Origin: an uncultured Enterobacteriaceae bacterium
GTDB taxonomy: Bacteria > Myxococcota_A > UBA9042
Assembly: GCA_964586155.1 (NCBI GenBank)
Contig: CAZPHC010000008.1
Location: 112,110 to 176,109 of the forward strand
Direction of reading: 5' to 3'
Length of the DNA: 64,000 nt
The notes beneath the pieces are model-generated. The model was not told the DNA's origin, did not search any database, and was given only the letters and a program-made list of their open reading frames with translations. The position numbers and the translations under genes are program-made. Shown piece after piece: positions 389 through 59,647 of this stretch; position 1 is the stretch's first letter; every line of letters starts with the position of its first letter.

Positions 389-489
389 CGTGGCTCCTTG
401 TGCGCGACGCCGGGCGGGCGGGCCGCGGCGCGCCCCGATGCTGTCGCACGGGCGGCTGCTGGCTGCAAGGCCTGCGCATCGCGGGCGCT

Positions 490-524
490 GGACCGTCGAC
501 CTCGACCCGGCGCAACCGCGCTGC
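490..524. repeat. 35-bp motif GGACCGTCGACCTCGAC-N4-CGCAACCGCGCTGC, copy 1
   Basis: 31 of 35 nt are identical to 4683-4717 by hand alignment. It lies in the divergent intergenic region between the AKR start (388) and the small ORF at 571. Confidence 0.5.
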
Positions 525-570: not shown

Positions 571-789
571 ATGAGCGATCACACCGAGCCCACCGACGAC
601 GCTGACCTCCGCATCGAGGTCGAACCCGGCGTTTGGCTCGACCTCCGGCCCGGCGCAGCGCGGGATGCCAACGGCTGCGACCTCTCGCTCATCGACGCCT
701 GCCTCGACAAGACGCCCTATGAGCGTGTCCTTGCCCTGCGCGGCCTGGCCGGCCTGCTGCAGGGCGTCGAGAGCGACCGTGAGCGCTGA
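571..789 (+). CDS. small hypothetical protein (72 aa)
   Basis: ATG at 571, in frame with track ORF 400..789. GC3 is high from MSDHTEPTDDADLRIEVEPGVWLDL... to the stop. I recognise no family. Confidence 0.5.
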   Translation: MSDHTEPTDDADLRIEVEPGVWLDLRPGAARDANGCDLSLIDACLDKTPYERVLALRGLAGLLQGVESDRER

Positions 790-996
790 GCTTGGCCGGA
801 TCGTCGACCTGCTCGTCGACGCCGAGGTGGAATCGCGGTGGGGTCCGGCGTCGTCGCAGCGACGATCTTCGCAGGGATGCCGGACCTGGCGCCCTACGGC
901 TCGACACACGCCCCCGCCTTGCAGGTGCCCTTGGTCGAGCAGGCGGCGCCACCTGGCAGGTTCAAGCACGCACAGCCGAGCTTGGGGTCGCAGCCG

Positions 997-2310
997 TCAT
1001 TGGTGCATGGGGGGTGGTGCGAGGAGGGCCTCGGTCGGGCAGCGACCATCCTCCAGGAACAGAATTCGCGATGGGGACCGCCCTCGGTGACCCTCCCACC
1101 CGACCGCGAGCCAGGTACCGTCGTCGGCCGAATAGAGGCGCCCACGCACCTGTTCGTGGCGTATCGAATATGCAATCGGAGTTGGACACCGGTGCAGGCC
1201 GCCGGCATCGAGGTGTCCGATGCGCAACTGCGAGCTACCACCGGGTCTCCATTCCGTCCACACGACCAGCACCTTCGCAGAGCCGCTGGTTCCGAGCGAA
1301 ACCGGCGGAATGTCGATGGCCCAGCACTGTCTGCACCGGGGGCGATCGTGCGTCGCATGGTCGATGCGAGCCCATTCCGCAACGTTGCCGAATGCGTCCA
1401 TGGCGAGGATCCGCCAAGGCAAGACACGGGCCACGGTCTTCGGATCGTTCCACTCGATCCCCGGTAGAGCCCATACCGCGTGGTCCCCTCCCGCCGATGG
1501 GGTCCACACACCCTGTCTGGCCAACACAATCGGCAGATCGCCGATGCCCGACAGCTCTCGAACGCCTTGCCGCCTGCCACTCCGGTCGATGCGCCAGAGT
1601 TCGTAAGCTTGGTGCTGCGGCGAACCGCGGGCCACGAGCAGGGCCCCGCCCCAAGACGTCGCCTGGAGCCCGATGATGCGAACGTCGTCCGCGACCGCGA
1701 TCTCATCGCCTCGGATCGGCTCAGACGCGACGTCGAGCCGTGCGCCGAACCACATCTTCGCGCCCCCTGGCTGGCCAAACGTGTTGGGCTCTTGAATCAA
1801 GGCGAGCGCACTTCCGTCGCGACGGGTCGATACGAGCAGGACCGCTGCCGCTCCCTCGGGAGTGCTCCAGGGCTTCACCGCGTGGCAGACCGTTTTCACG
1901 CCGGTGTCGTCGATTCGCACCAACGATCGATCACATCGACCCTGCGCTGTCCCAGGGATCCACGTCGCGTCGTGGTCGACCACCGCCCGCCAGCCCTGCA
2001 GTCCGCCGGCGACACGCGCCGAGTGGGTGAGCAATGCGCCGCTGCGGCCTTTTCGCAACCAGAACACGCTCGTGCCGCGCACATCTGGGGATGCACTGCC
2101 GCTGGCGTTGGCGCCGTCCCACCAATCGTCGTCGGCCAGTACGAGATCGACTTGCGTCGATGCGTGTGCGAGCGGGACAGCCGACGTCATACCGACGCGG
2201 AGATCCAGTTCAACCCAACGCGTGGTCGTCGGTGCACTGCACGAAGCGACAAGTGTCGAGATCAACAGACCCAGGCCAGCGACGGTCCAGACCGATGAAC
2301 CTACACACAT
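997..2310 (-). CDS. hypothetical lipoprotein, gene D of the orphan operon (possibly frameshifted at its 3' end; see findings)
   Basis: Internal ATG at 2310 of track ORF 997..2385 gives MCVGSSVWTVAGLGLLISTLVASC with lipobox LVAS-C. The body is beta-rich with no recognised family. It overlaps the gene C stop by 10 nt. Confidence 0.6.
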   Translation of the reverse strand: MCVGSSVWTVAGLGLLISTLVASCSAPTTTRWVELDLRVGMTSAVPLAHASTQVDLVLADDDWWDGANASGSASPDVRGTSVFWLRKGRSGALLTHSARVAGGLQGWRAVVDHDATWIPGTAQGRCDRSLVRIDDTGVKTVCHAVKPWSTPEGAAAVLLVSTRRDGSALALIQEPNTFGQPGGAKMWFGARLDVASEPIRGDEIAVADDVRIIGLQATSWGGALLVARGSPQHQAYELWRIDRSGRRQGVRELSGIGDLPIVLARQGVWTPSAGGDHAVWALPGIEWNDPKTVARVLPWRILAMDAFGNVAEWARIDHATHDRPRCRQCWAIDIPPVSLGTSGSAKVLVVWTEWRPGGSSQLRIGHLDAGGLHRCPTPIAYSIRHEQVRGRLYSADDGTWLAVGWEGHRGRSPSRILFLEDGRCPTEALLAPPPMHQ

Positions 2311-3377
2311 GTTCCCTTCTCGAACTTCTCGACCACGGTCGGAGTGCCACACTTGAGCGGGTATGTCTGTGCCTGGGCGAGACATTTCTCGACCGAAACA
2401 CCTCCCACGGGGTCGACGAAGGCGACGCTACCGGTCTGATCCTTGCTGCAGCCAAAGTCGAAGATCGGCTTGCGCAGCCAGCAGGTCGCGAACTGGCAGC
2501 CGGGCTGACCGGACTCCTTGCAGCCACATTGGTCACAGGGTTGACCGCTCGTCGGCAAGCTTCCCTTCGGGGGGCAATCACAACGCCAGTCCCCGGCCGG
2601 GCACGCGCACCCGCACGCGTCGTTGCTCCACGCCCACCAAGCCCCCTTGGTCGACGCACAGTCAATGGGTTCCTCGACACAATCGCAGTCGCAGGTACCA
2701 AGATTCAGGAAGGTCCCAGGCTTGCAGGCGTAGGCAGGGTCCAACTCCTGCAAGCAGACGCAGGGACAACCTGGCTTGTGGATGTCGACGAATTTGCCTG
2801 GCGGGCAGGTGACGGGCGTTCCGCAGTGACACACGACGTCATCGGGATCGATGCAGACGCATTCGCAGCCGCGCTTTGGGTCCCGGACCTTCCCAGGACC
2901 GCAGCGCTCGCCAAGGCAGAGTCTCTTGCCGTTGTGATCGTACATCAAGTCGACACGCGGGAACGGGCGTCCCTTCGGTGCGATTTGCGGGGCATCCTGC
3001 CACTCCGGCCCGAGTCCTGTTTGCGACCTTGGAGGTGGCGGCGGAGGAGGTGCCGACGGGCGGCGAAGAAGGGGGCGAGACCCGCTGCCCGTCTCCGCGG
3101 CGTGTTGCTCGTGGCCCCTTGGTCGGTGGAACGGTGCCGTGACGAGCAACACCTCGCCCAGCCGCCCCGACCGTTCGGCGCCGAGGGACGGGACGGACGC
3201 CGTGAGCATGCCCGCGGATCGCGCGTTCATCGGCGGCACCTCGAAGGTCGCCTGCCCCCGCGCATCGCTGCGCGCCGCCCACCGCTGGCCGCGCCAACCC
3301 TGCGCCGTGAGCAGCACGTCGACGCCCGGCACGGGCCGGCCTTGCGGGTCGACGATCCAAGCCGAGACGGCGGTCAT
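2301..3377 (-). CDS. gene C: carboxypeptidase-regulatory-like (Ig-like) N-domain, poly-Pro linker and a 30-Cys C-terminal half with CXCXC repeats
   Basis: ATG at 3377 (MTAVSAWIVDPQGRPVPGVDVLLTAQG...ATFEVPP) forms an ATGA overlap with the gene B stop. A PPPPPPP linker follows. The Cys-rich half contains CECVC, CPCVC, CDCDC and CGCAC motifs. There is no signal peptide. Confidence 0.7.
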   Translation of the reverse strand: MTAVSAWIVDPQGRPVPGVDVLLTAQGWRGQRWAARSDARGQATFEVPPMNARSAGMLTASVPSLGAERSGRLGEVLLVTAPFHRPRGHEQHAAETGSGSRPLLRRPSAPPPPPPPRSQTGLGPEWQDAPQIAPKGRPFPRVDLMYDHNGKRLCLGERCGPGKVRDPKRGCECVCIDPDDVVCHCGTPVTCPPGKFVDIHKPGCPCVCLQELDPAYACKPGTFLNLGTCDCDCVEEPIDCASTKGAWWAWSNDACGCACPAGDWRCDCPPKGSLPTSGQPCDQCGCKESGQPGCQFATCWLRKPIFDFGCSKDQTGSVAFVDPVGGVSVEKCLAQAQTYPLKCGTPTVVEKFEKGTCV

Positions 3378-3688
3378 GAGCGCCTCCTGGAGTCGTCCGA
3401 AACGTCGATGACGGCGACCTGCTGCGCACCGGCCCACGAGCCAGCGTACCAAGCGTTCTGGACGATGTCGCCAAGTTCTTCGACGCGGAGCGTGAGTGGC
3501 CCGGTCGCAGCCGAGACGCGGATTCCAATCAGCGCAATCGCTTTGGGGTCAGGAGTGACATAGAACGCGTTGGCGTCCTCGATCGGCGCGATCATCAAAG
3601 CGACGCGGTGGGGCGACGCCGGGACGAGCGGGGCCGGGTTGACGGCGCCGACGGCGACGTTGACGACGGAGTACTTGGCCGATCGCAT
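3374..3688 (-). CDS. gene B: hypothetical 104-aa protein
   Basis: ATG at 3688 shares its A with the TGA stop of gene A (TGATG). The translation is MRSAKYSVVNVAVGAVNPAPLVPASPHRVALMIAPIEDANAFYVTPD... with high GC3. There is no signal peptide and no recognised family. Confidence 0.65.
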   Translation of the reverse strand: MRSAKYSVVNVAVGAVNPAPLVPASPHRVALMIAPIEDANAFYVTPDPKAIALIGIRVSAATGPLTLRVEELGDIVQNAWYAGSWAGAQQVAVIDVSDDSRRRS

Positions 3689-4518
3689 CAACGACCTCCG
3701 CAGGCGCCGCCGCAGCCACAGCCGCCGCCCTTGCCACAGCCGCAGCCGCCCCTGCCCGCCGCGGTGCCGACGCGCTGGAGCAGCAGAAAGCCCTTGCCGG
3801 CCGCCGGGGTGCCGGCGCCAGGCTGGTAGAGCTCGACGGACGGCGGCGCGATGGCGTCGAAGGTGCAGAGCACGCCGGAGGTCTCGGGCCTCGGCAGCGA
3901 GGGCTCTTCGGACGAGCCGGCGGGCAGCGAGAATGCGCCGGGCCGAAGGGTCTGCCCCGGCGGCAGCAGGCGCATGGCGACGACGAAGTCCTGGTAGTGG
4001 CGGATGCCGAGGACGCGGTAGGAGCCAGCGGGCAAGCGGACGCCGAGTGTGAGGCTGGCGCTCTGCCATTTGGTGGTGACCGAAGCGCTGCTGGGAGCGC
4101 CGCAGGTGTAGGGGACCCAGCCGACGGGCTCGGGCCCCGGGCATTGGAGCTGGTCGGCGAAGAAGACGCCGACGTCGTAGACGATGGAGGTCTCGAGGGC
4201 GGCGAGCACGGCGAGCGGGTCGCCGACCTGCAGGGGCGTGGGGTACATCGAGAGGTCGAGGGTGAGCGGTGCGTCTGCGGGCGCGAAGACGGGGGAGATG
4301 GCGGGCCGGCCGAGCTCGTTGAATGCGGGCAGGTCGAGGAACGCGGCGCTGTCGGTGCTGACGGTGGCGACGCGCGCGCCGGCTCCGATGAGGAGCAAGG
4401 ACTTGGACATCTGGAGCTGGTCGGTGAGGGCGGGGATGACCGAATCCGCGACGGGTGTGAGCGCGACGTTGGTGGTCGCGCTGCTGGTGCCGCGGAACAT
4501 CGAGAAGTGGACTGGCAT
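3688..4518 (-). CDS. gene A: hypothetical 276-aa protein ending in a Gly/Cys tail (GRGGCGCGKGGGCGCGGACGGR)
   Basis: ATG at 4518 is preceded by GGAGG (CGGAGGCCAGATG). The translation is MPVHFSMFRGTSSATTNVALTPVADS... with high GC3. There is no signal peptide and no recognised family. Confidence 0.7.
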   Translation of the reverse strand: MPVHFSMFRGTSSATTNVALTPVADSVIPALTDQLQMSKSLLLIGAGARVATVSTDSAAFLDLPAFNELGRPAISPVFAPADAPLTLDLSMYPTPLQVGDPLAVLAALETSIVYDVGVFFADQLQCPGPEPVGWVPYTCGAPSSASVTTKWQSASLTLGVRLPAGSYRVLGIRHYQDFVVAMRLLPPGQTLRPGAFSLPAGSSEEPSLPRPETSGVLCTFDAIAPPSVELYQPGAGTPAAGKGFLLLQRVGTAAGRGGCGCGKGGGCGCGGACGGR

Positions 4519-4666
4519 CTGGCCTCCGAAAGGTTGCGGCTGGACGGCTGGACCGAAACCGCTTGACATGTGGATGCTGTGAGAATGCTCGCTCGCTCGC
4601 TCGCTCGCTCGCTCGCTCGCTCGCTCGCAAGCGAAACTTGCAGGCCCAGAAAATTCTTCACACACG
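4492..4666. repeat. duplicated leader block, copy 1 (first 9 codons of gene A, its RBS and upstream region)
   Basis: 4492-4592 matches 6174-6274 with 4 mismatches in 101 nt and no indels (hand alignment, constant offset 1682). After the (GCTC) tract the similarity resumes (GCAAGCGAAAcTTGCAGGCC) and then decays. Confidence 0.85.
4587..4628. repeat. tetranucleotide microsatellite (GCTC)x10 (GAGC on the minus strand)
   Basis: I counted ten perfect GCTC units at 4587-4626 plus a trailing GC. The tract lies about 70 nt upstream of the gene A ATG. The paralogous block at 6268-6276 has only GCTCGCGCGC. Confidence 0.95.
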
Positions 4667-4667
4667 T

Positions 4668-5072
4668 TCACAAATGGCCGTCGGACCGTCGACCTCGACG
4701 CGACGCAACCGCGCTGCAGCCCGCGAACACGGCCTGCGGGATGCCGAGCAACACCGGATGCACCGGCAGCGCCAGCAGCTTCTCCTTCGCCAGGGTCGCG
4801 AACAGGCCGAACATCGGCCAATCCCAGGACGTGCCGGGCAGCAACGCGCCGAAGCCCACCGTCAGCAGCGCGATGGCGAGGCCGACGCCTGCCGCGACGG
4901 CGCTCCAGCCGCTGAGGCGGAACGCGTCGAGGCCAACCTCTCGATCGCCGGGGCCGCCACATCGCCGGGCCGCGCACGCGGCGTTGCCAACCCGGCCTCG
5001 GTGCCACGTTGAGCCGACCATGCGCGCCGGCATGGGGTTGGGGCGGTGTGTCCGCTGGTCATGCAGGTGCAC
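4668..5072 (-). CDS. possible small membrane protein (start uncertain; ATG 5021 is also possible)
   Basis: GC3 is high only in the distal two thirds (LSGWSAVAAGVGLAIALLTVGFGALLPGTSWDWPMFGLFATL...). There are two hydrophobic segments. The 3' end overlaps the 35-bp motif copy. Confidence 0.3.
   Translation of the reverse strand: MHLHDQRTHRPNPMPARMVGSTWHRGRVGNAACAARRCGGPGDREVGLDAFRLSGWSAVAAGVGLAIALLTVGFGALLPGTSWDWPMFGLFATLAKEKLLALPVHPVLLGIPQAVFAGCSAVASRRGRRSDGHL
4683..4717. repeat. 35-bp motif, copy 2
   Basis: GGACCGTCGACCTCGACgcgaCGCAACCGCGCTGC, compared with 490-524. Confidence 0.5.
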
Positions 5073-5892: not shown

Positions 5893-6200
5893 CAATGCCA
5901 GCGCGCAGTAGGGTCCCCCACGTGGTGTGGAAACGGAACGAGGTCGAGCCCGGGAACGTCGCTTTGGGGGCCTACGTGCCGTCTCCAACCACTCGGGCAC
6001 TCCACGGTGACCTGGATGAGGCGCTGCAGACGACTGGCGTCGACTTCGGGACGAGGTGGTTCGACGTTCAGTGCAGCGATGTGTCCTGCGTCGGGGCGGG
6101 AGGGACGGCCAATGACGAGCCCAAGCCAGCGGCCACGGGGCGTGACTTCCGCCGGACTCCTCGTGATTCTCGGGCGGAACATGGAGACGTGGACAGGCAT
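5892..6200 (-). pseudogene. 102-codon ORF behind leader copy 2, either a remnant or a divergent paralogue of gene A
   Basis: It starts MPVHVSMFR (gene A starts MPVHFSMFR) behind the same RBS and then diverges completely. GC3 is clearly lower than in neighbouring genes. Confidence 0.3.
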
Positions 6201-6317
6201 CTGGCCTCCGAAAGGTCGCGGCTGGACGGCTGGACCGAAACCGCTTGACATGTGGATGCTGTGAGAATGCTCGCGCGCAAGCGAAATCTGCAGGCCGCAC
6301 GAAAACTCCGCACAAGT
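6174..6317. repeat. duplicated leader block, copy 2
   Basis: See 4492-4666. It has the same orientation and lacks the (GCTC) expansion. Confidence 0.85.
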
Positions 6318-6351
6318 CTCCGAGCGACTCGCAGGACCACGAGACGGGCCC

Positions 6352-6453
6352 ACCGATGTCGCCGCCCCACCGATGTCGCCGCCCCACCGATGTCGCCGCC
6401 CCACCGCTGCCGCAGCCCCACCGCTGCCGCCGCCCCACCGATGTCGCCGCCCC
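6352..6453. repeat. 17-bp tandem repeat x6 (ACCGATGTCGCCGCCCC; units 4 and 5 are ACCGCTGCCGC[A/C]GCCCC)
   Basis: The unit-initial A falls at 6352, 6369, 6386, 6403, 6420 and 6437, giving period 17. That is not a multiple of 3, so all three frames rotate through the array, which argues it is non-coding. Confidence 0.9.
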
Positions 6454-6616: not shown

Positions 6617-7204
6617 ATGGCCGAGCCGATGCTGGCGTACGTCAGCGAGCACGACTACCTCGACGGCGAACGGGACGCCCAGCAGCGCCACGAATACGTC
6701 GACGGTCGAATTTTCGCGATGACGGGCGCGAGCCGCCGTCACAACATCGTGTCAGGCAATCTCTTTGCGCGCCTCCACGCCCGCCTTCGAGGCCGGCCCT
6801 GCGACGTCTTCGTCAGCGACATGCGCGTGTATGTCCGCAGCGTCCGCGCGTACTACTACCCCGACGTCGTCGTGACCTGCGACGGTCGCGACCGCGAGAG
6901 CGACGACGTCGCGGGCCTCGAGCATCCAACGCTGCTCATCGAGGTGCTCTCGCCCTCGACCGAGGCCATCGATCGCCGCGAGAAATGGCTGCACTACCGC
7001 CAACTCGAGAGCTTGCACGAGTACGTGCTCGTCGATCCGACGCAGCCCTGGGTCGAGGTGTTTCGCCGCACCGATCGCGGCTGGGTCCAGGAGCTGCACC
7101 GCGACGCCGACGCCGAGCTCGCGCTGGAGAGCGTGGGGCTCACGTTGAGCTTCGCGACCATCTACGAAGGCACGGCGCCCGCTGACGATACGCCGTCGGC
7201 CTGA
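6617..7204 (+). CDS. Uma2 family (DUF820) endonuclease
   Basis: ATG at 6617. The translation is MAEPMLAYVSEHDYLDGERDAQQRHEYVDGRIFAMTGASRRHN...YYYPDVVVTC...PTLLIEVLSPSTEAIDRREKW..., with the PD-(D/E)xK-like motifs typical of Uma2. Confidence 0.85.
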   Translation: MAEPMLAYVSEHDYLDGERDAQQRHEYVDGRIFAMTGASRRHNIVSGNLFARLHARLRGRPCDVFVSDMRVYVRSVRAYYYPDVVVTCDGRDRESDDVAGLEHPTLLIEVLSPSTEAIDRREKWLHYRQLESLHEYVLVDPTQPWVEVFRRTDRGWVQELHRDADAELALESVGLTLSFATIYEGTAPADDTPSA

Positions 7205-50550: not shown

Positions 50551-53500
50551 TCATTTGACCGCGCGGACGTAGACCAGCCAGCTGCCGTAGTTGTCCTTGC
50601 CGCAGATCGACATCGCGCCCTTGGTCCACATCTGGCCCGGGGCGGCGCATTGGTCGACGGCGGTCTGGCCGGGCACGAGCAGGGTCTTGCCGTCGCCTTC
50701 GAAGCAGCCGACGCCCCAGCCGCAGGTGAGCTTGTCGAAGTCGACGGAGTTGCCGCAGTTGACCGCCTGGCCATTGGCCGTCCAGGTGCCCGCGAGCGCC
50801 ACCTTCTTGGTCCAGCTCCAGCTGCCGGTGTACACCGGCGAGACGATGCCGTCGGTGTCGGACTCCTTGCACTTGTAGAGGAACTGCGCCTTCGGCCCCA
50901 TCAGCTTGGCCAGCTGTTCGCCGCTGATCTTGCTGTCGATGCGCGTCCAGCCACCGCCGGCGGTCGTCAGGTCGCAGCCGGTCGCGAACGAGGGCAGCTC
51001 GTCCTTGGGGTCCGGGTCGATCCAGACCTGGCTCAGGCCGGCGAGCTTGCTCGTCGCGCCGAACGCCTGGCAGCTGGTCGCGGCCGCACCGGGGGCGCCG
51101 CCGAGCAGGTCGCCGCAGCTCGTCAGGTCGAGGCGGACCTTGCGTACGCGGTTGTATTGCGCGTCGGCGACCCAGACGGCCCCCTTGGCGTCACGGCCGA
51201 GGCTGAGGTTGTTGCCCAGGCGGGCCTGCGGGCCGAGTCCGTCGAGCCAGCCCTCGGTCGTGAGATGGCCGACGATGGACTCGACGCGCTGCGTCGGCCA
51301 GACGCGCCGCACCGCGCTCGATCCGGTCGAGGTCACGAGCAAGGTCCCGTCCGGCAACGCCACGACATCGGTGGGCCGGTAGAACGTGCCACCGCGGCGG
51401 CCCACGCCGTCGACGTTGTTGCGCAGCGGCGGGCCCGCGTCGCCGATCACCGTCGTGAGCAGGCCGGTCGTGTCGAGCTTGCGCACGCTGTGCGTGTCGG
51501 CGTCGGCGATCCAGAGCACGCCCTTGGTGTCGTAGTCCAGGCCCTCGGGGTTGCACAGCTTGTTCGCACCGAACGGGCCGTCGACCGCGCCGCACGCGCC
51601 CAGGGTGCCCGCGACGGTGGTCACCTTGCCGTTGGTGTAGCGACGCAGCAGATGGTTGCCGGCGTCGGCGATGGTCACGATGCCGTCGGCGGTGGCCGCG
51701 ACGCCCAGGGGGTTCTTGATCGTCGCCGCGAGGCCGTCACCGTCGTACGCGCCGGCCTTGCCGTTGCCGATGATGCTCGAGACATTGCCGTCCGGGTCGA
51801 CGCGGCGGATGCGCTGGTTGTTCGGATCGCTGACGTAGAGGTTGCCCGCGCCGTCGACGGCGATACCCGTCGGGTTGGAGAACTTGGCCGCTCCGCCTTT
51901 GCCTTCGGCGTAGCCGGGGCCCTTGCCGCCGGCCAGGGTCGTGACCTTGCCGTCGGGCTCGATCTTGCGCACCGCAGCGCCGTAGTAGTCGACGGCGTAG
52001 AAGTTGCCCTTGTTGTCGCCGACGATGTCGCGCGGAGAGGCGAACATGACCTCGTTGCCCACGCCGTCCTTGACGCCGTTGCCGCCGCCGCCCGCCATCG
52101 TCGTGATCACGCCCACGCTGCTGCATTGGCCGTTGTAGCACTGCTTGGAGCATTCGCCGGCGCTGCCGCAGAGCGTGCCGTCGACCCGCGCCTTGCTGCG
52201 GCAGACGCCCTCGGCCGGATCGCAGGTGGCCTCCTGGCAGGGGTTGCCGTCGTCGCACAGCGTCGTGCCCGCGTCGCTGTGCTTGCAGCCGACCTTCGGA
52301 TCGCAGATGTCGAGCGTGCAGTCGTTGCCGTCGTCACAGGTCGAGCCGATCGGCGTGATGCGGCGCAGGGCATGGACGCTCGGCACGCTGACCAACACCG
52401 AGCCACCGCCCGCGTCAGCAAGGCCCGAGGCGACGCTCAAGGCCACCGCGCCGCCAAAGCCCTGCATCTGCTTGCCGCCGCCGGCGACCATGGTCACCTC
52501 GTTGCGGACCGGATCCCAGCGCCGGACGACGTGGAGCTGCGCGTCGCTGAAGTAGACGCCCGCGTCGGTGGGCAGCACGCTGCGCATGTTGTAGATGCGC
52601 ACCGAGAGCGAGCCGACGCCCGTCAGGGGCGCCTCCGGGCCACCGTCGGCGAGCACGGTGCTGACGACGCCGGCCGGGTCGATCTTGCGCAAGCGGCCGC
52701 CTGCCCACTCTGCCACCCAGAGGGTGCCCTTCTTGTCGAGCGCGACGTCCACCGGGTAGTGGAAGCGCGCCACCGAGCCCGGGCCGTCGAAGCCGCCGAT
52801 GTTGCCGTCGCCGGCGATCGTGGTCGTCGTGCCGTCGGCGCCGATCTTGCGGATGGCGTGGTTGGCGAAGTCGGCGAGGAAGGCGGCACCTTCGGCATCG
52901 ACCGTCAGCGCCAGGGGTTCGCGGAACCGGGCATCGGCGCCCTTGCCGTTGACCAGGCCGAACGCGCCGGTCTTGCCCGCCAGCAGCGTGACCGTGCCGT
53001 CCGCTGCGACGCGGCGGATGGTGTGGTTGTAGCGATCGGCGACGAAGAGCTCGCCCTGCTTGCCGAGCGCGATGTCTTCCGGTCGGTTGAAGCGGGCTTC
53101 CGTGGCGCCGCCGTTGGTGTCGCCCGAGGCCTGGCCCGGCCCGCCCGCGACCGTGTCGACCGTGCCGTCGGGGAGCATGACGCGGATGGTGTGGTTGTTC
53201 GCGTCTGCGATCCAGACCTTGCCCTTGCCGTCGGTCGCCATGCCAGTCGGGTAGTAGAAGCCCGCGACCGCGACCTGGCCCGCCAGCTTCACCGTGCCGT
53301 CGCGGGCGTTCACCGTGTTGAACGCCGCGGCCTCGCTGCCGGCACCGTGGCGCACCACGACCTGGTCAGGGTCCGCGAGGCAGCTGCCTCCGTTGCAGCG
53401 CTCGCTGGTCGTGCAGGCGCTGCCGTCGTCGCAGGGATCGCCGTCGGTCTTGGTCGTGTGTGCGCAGCCCTTCTGCGGATCGCAGGTGTCGACGCTGCAC

Positions 53501-56500
53501 GAGTTGTTGTCGTCGCAGCCGAAGCCCACGATGTTCTTGCAGGTGCAGCCCGTGACCTTGGTCCCGGCCTTGCAGACGCCTGCGGCGCAGACGCCGGCGT
53601 AGGTGCAGGCATCGCCGTCGTCGCAGGGCGAGGCGTCCGCGACGTGCTTGCAGCCGATCTTGGGCACGCAGGCGTCGACGGTGCAGCTGTTGCCATCGTC
53701 GCAGCCCAACACGGGCGATTGCAGCGCGACGAGCGTGTGCTTGTTGGTCCAGGTGACCCAGATCTCGCCGTTGTTGCCCTCGGTGATGCCGGCGGGGTTG
53801 GCGAGGTTGAGCGCTTGCGCCGGGCCGTTCTGGGCGCTGCCACCGCCCGCGATGAACTGCAGCCGGCCGGTGATGTCGATGCGCGAGATGAAGCCGTCGT
53901 AGCTCGCGACGAGCAGCGATCCGTCCCCGGCCACCGCGATGGCGCGGGGGTGCCGCACCGAGGCGCCCAGGCCGACGCCCTCGAGGTCGATCGGGCGGTC
54001 GTTGCCGACGACGGTGGTGACGATGCCGTCGGTGCCGATGCGGCGGATGGCGTGGTTGTAATGGTCGGCCACATAGACCGATCCGTCCGCGCCCATCGCG
54101 AGGCCCACGGGCTGCTCGAAGAGCGCGACCTCTAGCGGCCCGTCGCGCAGGCCCCAGTTCGATTGGCCGGTCAGCGTCGAGACGACGCCGGCCGCCACCT
54201 TGCGGATCCGGTGGTTGTGCCGGTCGGCCACCAAGACGCCACCCTTGCTCTCGACGAGGACGTCGTAGGGCTGGTTGAAGGTCGCGATCGCGACCGGGCC
54301 GTCGATGTACGAGACCGTGCCGGTGCCGGCGACGGTGCTGACGACGCCGGCCGCGCTGACCGCGCGGATCCGATGGTTGGCCATGTCCGCGACGACGTAG
54401 CCGCCGTCCGCGGTGAAGTCGACGCCGACTGGCTGGTTGAAGCGCGCGGCGCTCGGGCCACCATCGGCGAAGCCGACGCCACTGAAGCCGCCTGCGACCG
54501 TGACGACCTGGCCGTCGGGACGCAGCAGGCGCAACCTGCCGGCGTTGGACTCGGTCAGGGCGATCCGACCGTCCGGCGCACGCCGGATGGCTGCGGGCCA
54601 GTTGTAGCGGGCGACGTCGAGCTTGCCGTCGATGCCCCCGGCGTTGCCGCCCCAAAGCTTGGCGTTCGGGCTGGCCGCATAGCAGCTGCCGCCCTGGCAG
54701 ACGTTGAGCGCCGTGCAGGTGTCGCCGTCGCTGCAGGGCGCGCTGTTGGGCTCTGCGGTCCCCTCGCAGGCACCCGTCAGGCTGTTGCAGACGTCCTTGG
54801 TGCAGGTGTTGCCGTCGTCGCAGGTGTTCGCGGTGTGCTTGCACGAGCCGGATTGCTTGTCGCAGCTGTCGCGGGTGCAGATCTTGCCGTCGTCGCAGGT
54901 GTCGCTGCGCAGCCGGATGCGACGCAGCACGTGGTTCTCCCAATCGGCCACGACCAGCTCGCCGAAGGCGTCGAAGACCAGCCGGGCGGGGGTGTTGACC
55001 TTGGCTGCGTTGCCGATGCCATCGACGTAGCCGCTGCCGGCCGTGCCGATGATGGTCGTGACGGTGCCGTCGGGATCGATGCGACGAATGCGGTGGATGC
55101 CGCACTCGCTGATGTAGATCCGTCCGTCGGCCGCGGCCGCGACGCCGCAGGGATCGGTCAAGCGCACGGCGGCTCCCTTGCCATCGACGGCGCCAGCGAG
55201 GCCGTTGGCGCCCGCGACGGTCGTCACGGTGCCGTCCGCGAGCACGCGGCGGATGTTGTGGCGCCCGCGATCGGTGACGAGGAAGCTGCCGTCCGGGGCG
55301 CGGATCAGGCCGTAGGGCTGCGTGAAGCGCGCGGCCTCGCCCTTGGCGTCGATCGTGCCGCCGGCGCCCTGCTTGCCCGCGAACGGAGTCGTGGTGCCAT
55401 CGAGCGCGACGCGCCGCAGCAGGTTGTTGTGGCGATCGGCGACGAGGAGCGAGCCGTCGTCGAAGAGCGCGATCCCGGCGGGGTCGTAGAACTTGGCCTG
55501 CGCGCCCTTGCCCTCGGCGTAGCCCTGGACGCCGCTGCCGGCGAGCGTCGTGACCGTGCCGTCCGGGGCGACCTTGCGGATCGCGTCGAATCCGGCGTCC
55601 GAGACGTAGATCGTGCCGTCGGCGCCGTAGACCAGGCCGTTGAGCCAGCCGAAGGTCGGCGCCTTGCCATCGGTCAGCTTGTCGCCATAGAAGAAGTTGT
55701 GGTTGCCGACCACGCTGCGCACCTGGCCGTCGAGGCCCACTTCGCGGATCACGCCGGCCTGATCGTCGACGAAGCCGATCGCGCCGCTCGGGGCGAGCGC
55801 CACGCCCACCGGGCGGCGCAGCTGCGCGGTGCGCCAGTGCCCATCGCCGATCGCCGACGTGCCCGTGCCCGCGAGCGTCTCGATCTCGACGGTCGCCGGC
55901 ACCATGCTGCAGACCCCGCCGGTGCAGGTCTCGCCCTTGCTGCAGGCGTCACCGTCGTTGCAGGCGGTGCCGTCCACCTTGCCCTTGCACTGCGCCGGGT
56001 CGACGCTGCACGCGGCGGACTTCGGACCCGCGGTGCACTTGCCGGACTTGCAGGTGTCGCCGACGGTGCACGGGTCGGCGTCGAAGCAGGCGACGCCGTC
56101 GGCCGCCGCCGCGTGGCTGCAGCCGACGCCCGGCGTGCAGGTGTCGATGGTGCAGGCGTCCTTGTCGTCGCAGCCCTCGGCCGAGGCGAAGTGCTGGCAG
56201 CCGACCTGCGTGCTGCAGACGTCGTTGGTGCAGGGGACCTTGTCGTCGCAGGCGACATCGGCGGCGAGGTGGGCGCAGCCCGTGATCGGGCTGCAGGTAT
56301 CGACGGTGCAGTCGACCCCATCGTCGCAGACCACCGAGGCCGAGACCTTGTCGTCGTGCTTGCACGCGCCGGTCTTCGAGTCGCAGCTGTCGACGCTGCA
56401 CGGGTTGTTGTCGGCGCAGTCCGCCGGCTTGCCGGGGACGCATTGGCCGCCCTTGCACGCGTCGCCGACCGTGCAGCCGTCGCCGTCGCTGCAGAGGTTG

Positions 56501-58827: not shown

Positions 58828-58960
58828 CGGAGCCTCGGGCACAAGGTGGGGCGGGGGGACGCTTTGCCCCCAGCATGCCAGAGTCGTTCGTCTTGCGGTA
58901 GGACCAACGTTCGCGTACCAACCGCACGGACGCGGCGCAGACGCAGCGCGGGGGCAGGCG

Positions 58961-59647
58961 ATGGAGGCGGATTTCTGGCACGAGCGATGGCAGCAGGGGC
59001 AGATCGGCTTCCACCAGGCGGCCGTCAACGACGCCCTGCTCGGCCATTGGGCTTCGACCGTCGGCCCGGCGGCCTCGCGGCGGGTGCTCGTCCCGCTCTG
59101 CGGCAAGAGCATGGATCTGCGCTGGCTGCACAGCCAGGGGCATCGGGTGCTGGGCGTCGAGCTCTCGGCCCTGGCCTGCGACGCGTTCTTCGCCGAGCAG
59201 GGCTTGCCGGTCGAGGTGCGGCCGCTGGGGGGCGTGTGCTGGTACCAGGGCCGGGGTGTCGCAGAGGGCCTGGACCTGCTGCAGGGCGATATCTTCGGCC
59301 TCGACCTCGACGCGCTCGCGGCCGCGGGCCTCGCCCCCTGCCCGCTGCTCTACGATCGCGCCAGCCTGGTCGCCATGCCCGAGGCGATGCGCGCGCGCCT
59401 GGCCGCCCGGTTGCTGCAGCTGCTGTCGGCCGACGCGTCCGGGTTGGTCGTGACGTTCGACTACCCGCAGGACGAGCGGCCCGGGCCGCCTTTCAGCGTG
59501 CCGCCGGCCGTGCTCGCCGGGCTCTTCGCGGCCGAGGCCTCGCTCGACGTGCTGCAGAGCAACGACATGCTCGCCCACGATCACTCGGGACGCTGGACGA
59601 TGTCGTCGCTGGTCGAACACGTCTGCCGCTGGCGGCGCGGCGCCTGA
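58961..59647 (+). CDS. tpm: thiopurine S-methyltransferase family protein
   Basis: MEADFWHERWQQGQIGFHQ...VLVPLCGKSMDLRWL...GVELS...DRASLVAMP. Confidence 0.9.
   Translation: MEADFWHERWQQGQIGFHQAAVNDALLGHWASTVGPAASRRVLVPLCGKSMDLRWLHSQGHRVLGVELSALACDAFFAEQGLPVEVRPLGGVCWYQGRGVAEGLDLLQGDIFGLDLDALAAAGLAPCPLLYDRASLVAMPEAMRARLAARLLQLLSADASGLVVTFDYPQDERPGPPFSVPPAVLAGLFAAEASLDVLQSNDMLAHDHSGRWTMSSLVEHVCRWRRGA

What the first reader, a model, noticed from the sequence alone, without database searches (positions are those of the whole stretch)
997..4666. Orphan, tightly coupled four-gene operon (A-D) with no recognisable family and unusual Cys chemistry
Four minus-strand genes are stitched together by overlaps: TGATG between A and B at 3688, ATGA between B and C at 3374-3377, and a 10-nt overlap between C and D at 2301-2310. 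That pattern suggests stoichiometric co-production. A (276 aa) and B (104 aa) are beta-rich, lack signal peptides and match nothing I recognise. C combines a carboxypeptidase-regulatory-like Ig domain, a Pro7 linker and a 30-Cys half, also without a signal peptide. D is a lipoprotein. The operon lies in an accessory-looking patch next to a VapBC module and a Uma2 endonuclease. It sits behind a duplicated leader and a microsatellite (reported separately). Cys-dense proteins that are apparently cytoplasmic are odd. Metal or cluster binding, or a non-classical export or assembly route, are possibilities. I cannot assign a function.
Basis: partly seen in the sequence, partly recalled or inferred. 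Interest (0 to 1): 0.75.

Follow-up and report, generated by a model that had tools for sequence, protein, structure and literature searches.

The report
Capsid-like gene pair with variable spike cassette
The four overlapping genes are real, and the first two are not orphans: they resemble the two shell-building genes of a group of small unclassified virus-like elements, here joined in a myxobacterial-type chromosome to a highly variable cysteine-rich protein and a variable lipoprotein.

Summary
Four minus-strand genes (A 3688-4518, B 3374-3688, C 2301-3377, D 997-2310) overlap exactly as described, and GC3 supports all four frames. A, B and the N-terminal domain of C are under purifying selection (dN/dS 0.14-0.45 among close relatives).

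A and B are not orphans, although curated libraries (Pfam, PHROGs, NCBIfam, PADLOC, PDB sequences) give nothing. A profile of A finds 606 cluster representatives among 1.84 billion. In most loci examined, a B-like gene of about 100 aa follows A.

AlphaFold2 models give A as two consecutive jelly rolls (pLDDT 89) and B as a single jelly roll (pLDDT 87). Typical family members lie in 9-10 kb contigs that also carry a protein-primed DNA polymerase B and a lysozyme/coiled-coil protein. There, A and B are the only plausible capsid genes.

In the window and its close relatives, the A-B pair lacks replication, packaging and lysis genes. It is followed by C, which has a conserved Ig-like N-terminal domain, a proline linker and a hypervariable 30-Cys half. 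D, a hypervariable lipoprotein, comes next. These modules occur in tandem and carry a (GCGA)n tract of variable length upstream.

Best reading (confidence about 0.45): a virus-derived shell or vertex module displaying a polymorphic spike with a cognate envelope partner. Function is unproven.

The parts
4629..4717 (-). Conserved upstream region of the module. It holds two TGTGAAGA-like boxes (about 4654-4673) and the right-hand copy of a 42-nt direct repeat (4676-4717).
   Evidence: 93% identical to L001 up to 4717. The boxes are conserved in L001, L003, L018 and L009. The direct repeat is family D6.
4589..4628 (-). (GCGA)10 microsatellite between the conserved upstream boxes and the leader.
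   Evidence: Tandem Repeats Finder: period 4, 10.5 copies, 100% matches. The same tract has 3, 6, 7, 8 and 11 units at the same place in homologous loci.
4519..4588 (-). Leader (5' UTR) with a GGAGG Shine-Dalgarno sequence 7 nt before the ATG of A.
   Evidence: It is conserved in L001, L003 and L018, and duplicated at 6174-6278 (95% identical).
3688..4518 (-). Gene A, 276 aa. It has two consecutive 8-stranded jelly rolls (double-jelly-roll type) plus a disordered Cys/Gly tail, GGCGCGKGGGCGCGGACGGR. It is the proposed shell (capsomer) subunit.
   Evidence: GC3 0.895. dN/dS 0.14-0.26 against close homologues. 606 family representatives. AF2 pLDDT 89.3. Weak Foldseek hits to all four known double-jelly-roll classes and to TNF-like knobs. 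Direct tblastn link to the A-like gene of polymerase element L024, E 7e-7.
3374..3688 (-). Gene B, 104 aa, no Cys. It is a single 8-stranded jelly roll with one helix, and is the proposed vertex (penton-like) or accessory shell subunit.
   Evidence: AF2 pLDDT 86.6. Foldseek TM about 0.5 to jelly rolls, including Ena pilins, cupins, an HCIV-1 capsid chain and the CCMV coat. hhalign of the window group against the polymerase-element group gives probability 97.4%, E 1.3e-11. dN/dS 0.17-0.30.
3138..3377 (-). C, conserved N-terminal Ig/transthyretin-like domain (residues 1-80). It is the proposed docking domain.
   Evidence: Pfam CarboxypepD_reg E 9e-5 but below the gathering score (23.2 against 32.3), and Big_1 E 0.0095. 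Conserved in L001, L002, L003, L009 (both modules) and L018. It is a separate ORF in L018 and in L009 module 2.
3030..3050 (-). Pro7 linker in C (residues 110-116).
2301..3137 (-). C, linker plus hypervariable half with 30 Cys (CxCxC and PGxF...CxCxC patterns). It is the proposed exposed head or spike.
   Evidence: DNA homology to L001 stops at 3137. There is no detectable similarity to four other module variants. No relative was found in JGI metagenome contigs, and there are no Pfam or PDB hits.
997..2310 (-). Gene D as it reads in the window: a 437-aa predicted lipoprotein (LVAS|C24) with a hypervariable body.
   Evidence: The body has no significant similarity to D of L001, L018 or L009 module 2, and only a weak local match to L009 module 1 (30% over 82 aa, E about 7e-5). 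The homologues also carry lipoboxes.
1009..1014 (-). C6 homopolymer where D leaves the frame used by its homologues. This is a frameshift or a sequencing error.
   Evidence: Deleting one C gives a 471-aa D ending ...PPPCTNDGCDPKLGC...CKAGACVEP. That tail is in frame in L001, L018 and L009.
894..1016 (-). Conserved C-terminal Cys repeat of D (Dicty_CTDC / myxobacterial Cys-repeat type), out of frame in the window. It forms the left boundary of the variable segment.
   Evidence: 84% identical to the D' tail of L001. DNA homology to L001 resumes at 1011. Pfam Dicty_CTDC hits the homologous tails.
571..789 (+). Conserved 72-aa gene, convergent with D, at the end of the module. Function unknown.
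   Evidence: 92% identical to the gene at the same position in L001. dN/dS 0.31. No Pfam or PADLOC hit.
483..524 (.). Left-hand copy of the 42-nt direct repeat that brackets the 4.2-kb unit.
   Evidence: 88% identical to 4676-4717. In L001 this sequence is single-copy, at the junction of two tandem modules.
6174..6317 (-). Remnant of a second, upstream module: promoter-proximal region, leader and the first few codons of A (about the first nine, MPVHVSMFR, still match A). It has no microsatellite and is followed by the toxin-antitoxin genes.

Best explanation
The operon is a chromosomal module derived from the structural genes of a tailless virus.

Shown here:
- A (two jelly rolls in one chain) and B (one jelly roll) are a conserved, adjacent gene pair.
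- Their distant homologues sit in the same order in 9-10 kb elements that carry a protein-primed DNA polymerase B and a lysozyme/coiled-coil protein. In those elements nothing else could build a capsid.
- In the window lineage the pair has no replication, packaging or lysis genes.
- The pair is under purifying selection and occurs in tandem modules.
- It is translationally coupled to C, which has a conserved N-terminal Ig-like domain, a proline-rich linker and a hypervariable Cys-rich half, and to D, a hypervariable lipoprotein with a conserved C-terminal Cys repeat.
- The variable segment (window 1012-3136) is bounded by conserved sequence on both sides.

Inferred:
- A forms capsomer-like oligomers and B forms vertex or accessory oligomers.
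- C docks on this scaffold through its conserved N-domain and displays the variable head on a flexible stalk, as the vertex spikes of PRD1-type viruses do.
- D is the cognate envelope partner of that head, acting in receptor masking, exclusion or immunity, or in release. It is exchanged together with the head by recombination between the conserved flanks.
- The Cys/Gly tail of A cross-links subunits or binds metal.
- The (GCGA)n tract makes expression switchable.
- Assembly in the cytoplasm followed by release would explain why Cys-rich C has no signal peptide.
For: Genes and coupling:
- Coordinates, overlaps and coding signal.
- Purifying selection.

Family size and lack of annotation:
-.

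Folds:
- A is two 8-stranded beta sandwiches, pLDDT 89.
- PDB hits for A, all weak, include PHM (1yip), DUF2961 (4kq7, 7v1v), a PNGase (7zgn), STIV (3j31, 4ind) and PM2 P2 (2vvf). These are the four double-jelly-roll classes listed in PMC8812541.
- BFVD hits for A include the Wip1 and STIV capsid proteins and phage minor tail proteins.
- B is a single jelly roll with TM about 0.5 to known jelly rolls.

Pairing conserved across distant groups:
-.
- B-to-B hhalign probability 97.4%.
- A profile E 1e-9 to 1e-16 to the roughly 250-aa group, and a direct tblastn link, E 7e-7.

Viral context of typical members:
- PF03175 polymerase, GH25 lysozyme with a tape-measure-like coiled coil, and a short terminal inverted repeat in L016.
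- The polymerase is closest to those of tectiviruses, autolykiviruses and the archaeal viruses Muninn virus and Methanosarcina spherical virus.
- Genome size and divergent module layout resemble an autolykivirus.

Cassette structure:
-.

Variable microsatellite:
-.
Against: - No known capsid protein matches either model convincingly. For A the full-length TM is at most 0.25, and the best PDB E-value is 1.2e-3, to a non-capsid protein. The highest-probability hits are single TNF-like knobs of tail and spore-surface proteins, so a fibre or knob role is equally compatible with the fold.
- Profile comparison with an autolykivirus capsid protein finds nothing.
- No packaging ATPase or Walker A motif was found in the polymerase elements. 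None of them is a proven virus, and none was found in IMG/VR (one pattern scan) or in GenBank phages (tblastn).
- In many Myxococcota loci A-B follows four giant proteins of unknown function, which no capsid model explains.
- A lipoprotein of 440-570 aa is far larger than known phage exclusion lipoproteins.
- Oligomeric state, localisation and particle formation were not testable here.
Confidence: 0.45

Rival explanations
1. A polymorphic effector/partner cassette for kin recognition or antagonism. C is a polymorphic effector or recognition protein with a conserved trafficking N-domain and a variable head. D is its cognate immunity or receptor lipoprotein. A and B are accessory assembly or export factors rather than a shell.
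For: The architecture is conserved 5' part, variable middle and conserved 3' part, with C-head and D exchanged together. Modules occur in tandem arrays. Toxin-antitoxin or nuclease genes lie next to the modules. A hypermutable tract lies upstream. Some loci split the head into its own ORF.
Against: No toxin domain is recognisable in any C variant. D is 437-570 aa, unlike typical small immunity proteins. No secretion-system gene lies in the operon. The C and D types do not always co-vary: L018 and L009 module 2 share a C-head but not a D body. The model does not explain why A-B also sits in polymerase-bearing elements.
Confidence: 0.2
2. A decaying remnant of an integrated tailless virus: its structural and host-recognition module with no present function.
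For: Homology to genes of polymerase-bearing elements. There is an apparent frameshift in D, a truncated second copy of the leader and the start of A at 6174-6317, frameshifted A copies in L002 and L009, and a low-GC accessory setting.
Against: dN/dS is 0.14-0.30 for A and B across several contigs. The promoter, leader and overlaps are conserved. The same module without any replication or lysis gene occurs in at least five contigs and as tandem copies. Some of the frameshifts are in low-coverage assemblies, for example L002 at 3.2x coverage.
Confidence: 0.15
3. A surface fibre or appendage. A (tandem TNF/C1q-like knobs) and B (an Ena-like jelly roll) polymerise into a disulfide-linked fibre through the Cys/Gly tail of A. 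C is the tip adhesin and D the anchor.
For: The highest Foldseek probabilities are to Ena1B/Ena3A for B (0.99), and to ExsFA, a BclA-annotated phage protein, a Mtd N-domain protein and Gordonia minor tail proteins for A (0.93-1.00). The Cys tail of A is invariant. D is a lipoprotein.
Against: B has no Cys and no Ena-type connector. There is no DUF3992 or other pilin family hit. A, B and C have no signal peptide, and no usher or sortase is present. Most family members lack the Cys tail.
Confidence: 0.12
4. A is a cellular double-jelly-roll enzyme, like DUF2961 glycosidases, PNGase F or PHM, that modifies the Cys-rich or glycosylated partner proteins.
For: The PDB hits include PHM, DUF2961 and a PNGase. 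Distant A-B pairs lie next to glycosyltransferases, methyltransferases and FGE-sulfatase proteins.
Against: The nearly invariant positions in 125 sequences are G, P, W, Y, F, L and R, plus a single Asp. There is no conserved His, Cys, Met or Glu set. There is no Pfam hit to PF11175 or any enzyme family.
Confidence: 0.08

Closest known systems
[quoted passage not shown]
   Same: A protein of about 250-290 aa with two jelly rolls is paired with a jelly-roll protein of about 100-120 aa. Typical family members lie in 9-10 kb elements with a protein-primed polymerase B on the opposite strand, small membrane proteins and a lytic enzyme. This matches the layout of the 10.6-kb autolykivirus MG592402. 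C resembles a vertex spike: docking domain, flexible linker and variable head (established knowledge of PRD1 P5/P31; not tested here).
   Different: There is no sequence or profile similarity to any known capsid protein, and only weak structural similarity. No packaging ATPase was found. The window locus has no polymerase, lysis or membrane-protein genes. It is tandemly repeated and carries a lipoprotein and a Cys-rich head unknown in these viruses.
Cellular double-jelly-roll proteins (DUF2961/GH172, PNGase F, PHM; Krupovic et al. 2022, PMC8812541)
   Same: A chromosomally encoded protein with the two-jelly-roll architecture outside a provirus. These families appear among the Foldseek hits.
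   Different: Those families are enzymes with conserved active sites and lie in carbohydrate or peptide-processing contexts. A has no conserved catalytic set and always travels with a second jelly-roll gene.
Polymorphic toxin-immunity and receptor-binding-protein/exclusion-lipoprotein pairs (CdiA-CT/CdiI, Rhs-CT/RhsI, phage T5 pb5/Llp)
   Same: A conserved N-terminal part, a variable C-terminal part and a co-located variable partner gene, bounded by conserved sequence that allows cassette exchange. This comparison rests on established knowledge of those systems.
   Different: There is no toxin domain, no demarcation motif and no dedicated secretion system. The partner is a large lipoprotein with its own conserved Cys-repeat tail.
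Domesticated virus-derived particles (gene transfer agents, tailocins, encapsulins)
   Same: Structural genes of viral type are kept under selection in a chromosome without replication genes.
   Different: All known examples derive from tailed phages or the HK97 fold. None uses jelly-roll capsid proteins. Particle formation is not shown here.

Membership tests
[quoted passage not shown] | Two consecutive 8-stranded jelly rolls in one polypeptide | tested here: met
   The AF2 model has pLDDT 89.3, pTM 0.86 and about 16 strands in two blocks, 3-121 and 132-249. Foldseek retrieves tandem-jelly-roll proteins of all four known classes, all weakly.
[quoted passage not shown] | Significant structural similarity to a solved capsid protein | tested here: not met
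   The best capsid hits are STIV at E 3.9e-3 (TM 0.19-0.21) and PM2 P2 at E 2e-2 (TM 0.25), and Wip1 and STIV at E 3e-3 to 9e-3.
[quoted passage not shown] | Pseudo-hexameric trimer that tiles an icosahedral shell | not testable with these tools
   No multimer prediction or experiment was available.
[quoted passage not shown] | Encoded in a virus genome with a single-jelly-roll penton gene | tested here: inconclusive
   The adjacent B is a jelly roll. Distant members lie in polymerase- and lysozyme-bearing 9-10 kb elements. The window locus itself has no other viral gene, and none of the elements is a proven virus.
[quoted passage not shown] | FtsK/HerA-type packaging ATPase in the same element (present in most groups, absent in FLiP-like viruses) | tested here: not met
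   No Walker A motif in any ORF of L016, L017 or L024. No ATPase Pfam hit among the ORFs scanned in L016 and L017; L024 ORFs were not scanned against Pfam. None in the window operon.
Polymorphic toxin-immunity cassette | Conserved N-terminal region with a variable C-terminal region, and a variable downstream partner | tested here: met
Polymorphic toxin-immunity cassette | Recognisable toxin domain or delivery-system domain | tested here: not met
   No Pfam, NCBIfam, PADLOC or PDB hit in C beyond the N-terminal Ig-like domain.
Ena / DUF3992 endospore-appendage pilins | Jelly-roll subunit with an N-terminal Cys-containing connector and a family profile hit | tested here: not met
   The fold resembles Ena1B/Ena3A (TM 0.52-0.53). 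B has no Cys and no Pfam hit.
CarboxypepD_reg-like / transthyretin-like Ig domain (C, residues 5-53) | Pfam PF13620 score above the gathering threshold | tested here: inconclusive
   23.2 bits against a cut-off of 32.3, E 9e-5. No structure model was made for C.
Bacterial lipoprotein (D) | Hydrophobic signal segment followed by a lipobox [LVI][ASTVI][GAS]C | tested here: met
   The N-terminus reads ...GLGLLISTLVAS|C24, with a maximal hydropathy of 2.07. The D homologues also carry lipoboxes. This is a pattern check only; no dedicated predictor was run.
VapBC-type toxin-antitoxin (neighbour) | PIN-domain toxin preceded by a small antitoxin | tested here: met
   PIN at E 3.7e-12 and Phd/YefM antitoxin at E 5e-8. 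The antitoxin is therefore of the Phd/YefM type.

The most novel reading that the evidence does not exclude
Myxococcota have domesticated the jelly-roll capsid and vertex proteins of a tailless virus into a chromosomal, phase-variable system. It would build non-infectious particles, or shell-like assemblies, that display strain-specific Cys-rich spikes. A co-varying lipoprotein would act as the self-recognition or protection partner. This would be a jelly-roll counterpart of tailocins, gene transfer agents and encapsulins, used for interactions between cells. As a corollary, the roughly 600-member A/B family would mark a previously unrecognised group of small polymerase-B viruses.
Probability: 0.2. 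Interest if true: 0.85.

Novelty: new variant of a known kind. Interest (0 to 1): 0.7.

Why it matters
All known domesticated virus-derived particles (tailocins, gene transfer agents, encapsulins) come from tailed phages or the HK97 fold. The only cellular double-jelly-roll proteins described so far are enzymes.

A selected, tandemly arrayed, polymorphic chromosomal module built on a jelly-roll capsid-like pair would be a new route of viral gene capture. It would also be a new candidate system for strain-specific interactions in social bacteria.

Independently, the A/B pair gives a sequence handle on 606 cluster representatives that no curated library recognises. At least some of these sit in 9-10 kb polymerase-bearing elements, which may be an unclassified group of small tailless viruses of Chloroflexota, Actinomycetota and other phyla.

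The same pair also marks a conserved cluster of giant proteins (DUF6603 and three unannotated proteins) of unknown function.

Tried and rejected
Searches that found nothing:
- Pfam, PHROGs, NCBIfam and PADLOC scans of A-D gave nothing, apart from the weak Ig-like hit in C.
- PDB sequence searches with A profiles, C, D and three giant neighbour proteins gave nothing.
- A genome scan with A alone found nothing.
- Scans with the 125-sequence alignment failed because it has no conserved stretch to search with.
- An IMG/VR scan with a subgroup alignment found nothing.
- tblastn of three family members against 50,697 phage records found nothing.
- Profile comparison of A and B with an autolykivirus capsid protein and a neighbouring small ORF found nothing.
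- A metagenome scan for the window's C found no relative.
- Literature searches for DUF6603, and for double-jelly-roll proteins in Myxococcota or Chloroflexota, found nothing relevant.

Tests that were uninformative:
- A synteny test of the insertion site using the MATE gene was uninformative, because the closest genome contig is only 5.4 kb and not syntenic.
It was repeated with database homologues.
- The third gene of the polymerase elements could not be shown to match the N-domain of C.

Readings rejected:
- MYXO-CTERM sorting signal for the tail of A, because no transmembrane helix follows the Cys/Gly tract (sequence; family definition from established knowledge).
- Metalloenzyme, because no conserved His/Cys/Met set exists.
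- RNA element, because the only Rfam hit is a below-threshold animal microRNA model inside the A/B junction and is taken as chance.
- tRNA-linked island, because there is no tRNA in the window.

Full report
**1. The observation**

The region contains four minus-strand ORFs whose junctions are exactly as described:
- A/B: TGATG, with A's stop at 3690-3688 and B's ATG at 3688-3686.
- B/C: ATGA at 3377-3374.
- C/D: a 10-nt overlap at 2301-2310.

Third-position GC is highest in the proposed frame of each gene: 0.895, 0.81, 0.78 and 0.73.

A starts at ATG 4518 and is 276 aa. A GGAGG lies 7 nt upstream, gene callers use this start in every homologue, and the upstream ATG at 4569 is not conserved. 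Good Shine-Dalgarno sequences for B and C lie inside the preceding genes. The invariant ...ACGGR end of A doubles as B's ribosome-binding site.

No promoter-like site and no credible terminator-like site lies within the block.

C has Pro7 at residues 110-116 and 30 Cys, all between residues 154 and 357. It has no hydrophobic N-terminus. D has a signal-like segment and the lipobox LVAS|C24.

The neighbours are a PIN toxin with a Phd/YefM antitoxin, a Uma2 gene and, downstream, an aldo/keto reductase. GC content falls to 62-66% over C and D, against about 70-73% in the flanks.

**2. Corrections to the anatomy**

- *D is probably frameshifted.* D leaves the frame of its homologues in a C6 run at 1009-1014. 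Removing one C gives a 471-aa protein ending in ...PPPCTNDGCDPKLGC...CKAGACVEP. This Cys repeat ends D in L001, L018 and L009 and matches Pfam Dicty_CTDC. It is either a real frameshift or a sequencing error.
- *The repeating unit is larger than the operon.* It also contains a conserved 72-aa gene on the other strand (571-789; 92% identical in L001), and it is bracketed by a 42-nt direct repeat at 483-524 and 4676-4717. In L001 that sequence is single-copy and sits exactly where one module (...C'-D'-small gene) abuts the next (promoter-A-B...). L009, an NCBI 'Deltaproteobacteria bacterium' genome bin, has two complete modules in tandem, separated by AAA-ATPase/PD-(D/E)XK genes.
- *The duplicated leader is a module remnant.* The copy at 6174-6317 is the remnant of a second module, now followed by the toxin-antitoxin pair.

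**3. What is conserved and what is not**

Against L001, DNA identity is:
- 93% over promoter, A and the start of B (window 3626-4717);
- 90% over the end of B and the first 80 codons of C (3137-3456);
- 90% over the D tail, the small gene and the repeat (487-1011).

There is no match for window 1012-3136.

The variable halves of C and the bodies of D were compared across five module variants: the window, L001, L018 and the two modules of L009.
- The window's C-head matches none of the others. The window's D body has only one weak local match, to L009 module 1 (30% over 82 aa, E about 7e-5).
- The other variants share at most 24-43% identity.
- The C and D types co-vary only in part.
- A metagenome scan found no relative of the window's C.

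In L018 and in L009 module 2, the N-domain and the Cys-rich head are separate, overlapping ORFs.

dN/dS among close relatives is 0.14-0.26 for A, 0.17-0.30 for B and 0.22-0.45 for the N-domain of C. So the conserved part is maintained by selection.

The (GCGA)n tract is present at the same position in every related locus, with 3, 6, 7, 8, 10 or 11 units. It lies between conserved TGTGAAGA boxes and a conserved leader.

**4. A and B are not orphans**

Curated libraries are silent. A word-indexed search found only five close relatives of A.

An exhaustive profile search found 606 cluster representatives at E<=1e-3 and 68 at E<=1e-10. Most are about 250 aa and about 25% identical to A. In most contexts recovered, a B-like gene of about 100-120 aa follows A. 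No B-like ORF was found after A in L011, L013 and L014, and L022 has B-like genes without an adjacent A.

B of the window group and B of the most distant group align at 97.4% probability, E 1.3e-11. An A-like gene of that distant group hits the window's A directly by tblastn, E 7e-7.

**5. Folds**

With a 125-sequence alignment, AlphaFold2 gives A at pLDDT 89.3 and pTM 0.86. The model has two blocks of about eight strands each, and the Cys/Gly tail (residues 258-276) is disordered.

No PDB hit for A is significant. The weak list nevertheless contains PHM, DUF2961 (4kq7, 7v1v), a PNGase, STIV proteins and PM2 P2. These are the four known classes of double-jelly-roll proteins according to PMC8812541. 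The highest probabilities, however, are for single TNF-like knobs: ExsFA, a BclA-annotated phage protein, Gordonia minor tail proteins and a Mtd N-domain protein.

B (pLDDT 86.6) is a single jelly roll. It reaches TM about 0.5 to Ena pilins, cupins, an HCIV-1 capsid chain and plant-virus coat proteins.

The nearly invariant residues of A are structural (G, P, W, Y, F, L, R) rather than catalytic.

**6. Context of distant members**

*Group i: small polymerase-bearing elements.* L016, L017 and L024 are contigs of 9.1-9.7 kb from genome bins, and L031 and L032 are metagenome contigs. They share this order:
- a conserved protein of 140-168 aa;
- A (249-257 aa);
- B;
- small ORFs, including predicted membrane proteins;
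- a coiled-coil protein of 494-1002 aa, which in L016 carries a GH25 lysozyme and matches tape-measure profiles;
- on the opposite strand, a protein-primed family-B polymerase.

L016 has a short imperfect terminal inverted repeat. The polymerase is closest to those of Muninn virus, Methanosarcina spherical virus, Bacillus phage AP50, PRD1-type phages and autolykiviruses. Size and layout resemble a 10.6-kb autolykivirus.

Nothing else in these elements could be a capsid protein. However, no packaging ATPase was found, and none of the elements is a demonstrated virus.

*Group ii: giant-protein clusters.* In several Myxococcota bins and metagenomes, A, usually followed by B, follows a conserved run of giant proteins: DUF6603 (~1100 aa), then ~1010, ~1600 and ~590 aa. 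A-B is in turn followed by Cys-rich, FG-GAP or FGE-sulfatase secreted proteins, or by glycosyltransferases. These giant proteins have no Pfam or PDB match. This association is unexplained and weakens any simple capsid story.

**7. Interpretation**

The most economical reading is that A and B are the shell and vertex-type proteins of a lineage of small polymerase-B elements. In the window lineage they have been kept, without replication, packaging or lysis genes, as the invariant core of a polymorphic cassette.

C would dock through its conserved Ig-like domain and expose a strain-specific, disulfide-type head on a proline-rich stalk. D would be its envelope-located partner. Cytoplasmic assembly followed by release would explain the absence of signal peptides on Cys-rich proteins. 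All of these steps are inference; only homology, fold class, synteny, selection and cassette structure are shown.

The rivals are a polymorphic effector/partner cassette in which A-B are accessories, a decaying provirus fragment, an Ena-like fibre, and an enzymatic double-jelly-roll protein. Each is scored separately. None is excluded.

**8. Novelty and verdict**

The finding is real and more interesting than an unannotated operon. It links a large unannotated jelly-roll protein pair to virus-like elements, and it shows a selected, tandem, hypervariable chromosomal derivative.

It is best filed as a new variant of a known kind: viral structural genes retained in a cellular genome. Membership in the capsid-protein family is only partly met, and function is untested.

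Interest is 0.7. Confidence in the leading model is about 0.45.

Noticed in passing
window 1009-1014 and 894-1016: A C6 homopolymer shifts D out of the frame that encodes the conserved C-terminal Cys repeat. One base fewer gives a 471-aa D like its homologues. This is a real frameshift (possibly a second switch), a pseudogene or a sequencing error.
   Followed up: partly
window 6349-6453: A 17-nt tandem repeat (CCCACCGATGTCGCCGC, 6.2 copies, 93% matches) lies immediately upstream of the truncated second copy of the A leader and inside the long ORF that ends as Uma2.
   Followed up: no
window 4589-4628; L001, L002, L003, L009, L018, L019: The (GCGA)n tract upstream of A is conserved in position but has 3 to 11 units in different loci. 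It is flanked by two conserved TGTGAAGA-like boxes and a conserved leader. The truncated second copy in the window has lost it.
   Followed up: partly
L004-L008, L010, L011, L013-L015, L033-L036: A conserved cluster DUF6603 (~1100 aa) - ~1010 aa - ~1600 aa - ~590 aa - A-like (- B-like) occurs in Myxococcota bins and metagenomes. Some loci have two A paralogues. The four large proteins have no Pfam or PDB match, and no paper mentions DUF6603.
   Followed up: partly
L016, L017, L024, L031, L032: Contigs of 9-10 kb (Anaerolineaceae, Bellilinea and Conexibacter bins, plus metagenomes) carry protein-primed polymerase B, A-like and B-like genes, a conserved 140-168 aa protein and a long coiled-coil/lysozyme protein. 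No match was found in GenBank phages (tblastn with three family members) or in one IMG/VR pattern scan. They are a possible unclassified group of small tailless viruses.
   Followed up: partly
L018 3909-5284; L009 9642-10888: In two loci the Ig-like N-domain and the Cys-rich head of C are separate ORFs with an ATGA-type overlap, so the head can be a free-standing protein.
   Followed up: partly
L009 113-1729, 6579-8294, 12587-12770: AAA-ATPase_like/PDDEXK_9 genes alternate with the A-D modules in the NCBI genome bin. In L018 a PemK toxin takes that place, and in the window a PIN/Phd pair does.
   Followed up: no
L018 2496-2708 and 6857-8275: The 70-aa ORF upstream of A repeats part of the 472-aa gene downstream of D. 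The module there is therefore flanked by a duplicated piece of a host gene.
   Followed up: no
L022 10001-10300 and 12580-12879: Two near-identical 99-aa B-like genes (one residue apart) without an adjacent A-like gene, next to SBBP-propeller and beta-helix (pectate-lyase-like) proteins.
   Followed up: no
window 50551-59112: A 2853-aa Cys-rich ORF (194 Cys) gives many tblastn matches to the conserved Cys-repeat tail of D.
   Followed up: no
window 4668-5072: A small ORF with high GC3 and a hydrophobic stretch lies between the module's right-hand repeat and the PIN toxin gene. It has no Pfam or PADLOC hit.
   Followed up: partly
window 6620-7201: The Uma2 protein matches PADLOC candidate defence family PDC-S03 (E 4e-28).
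   Followed up: no
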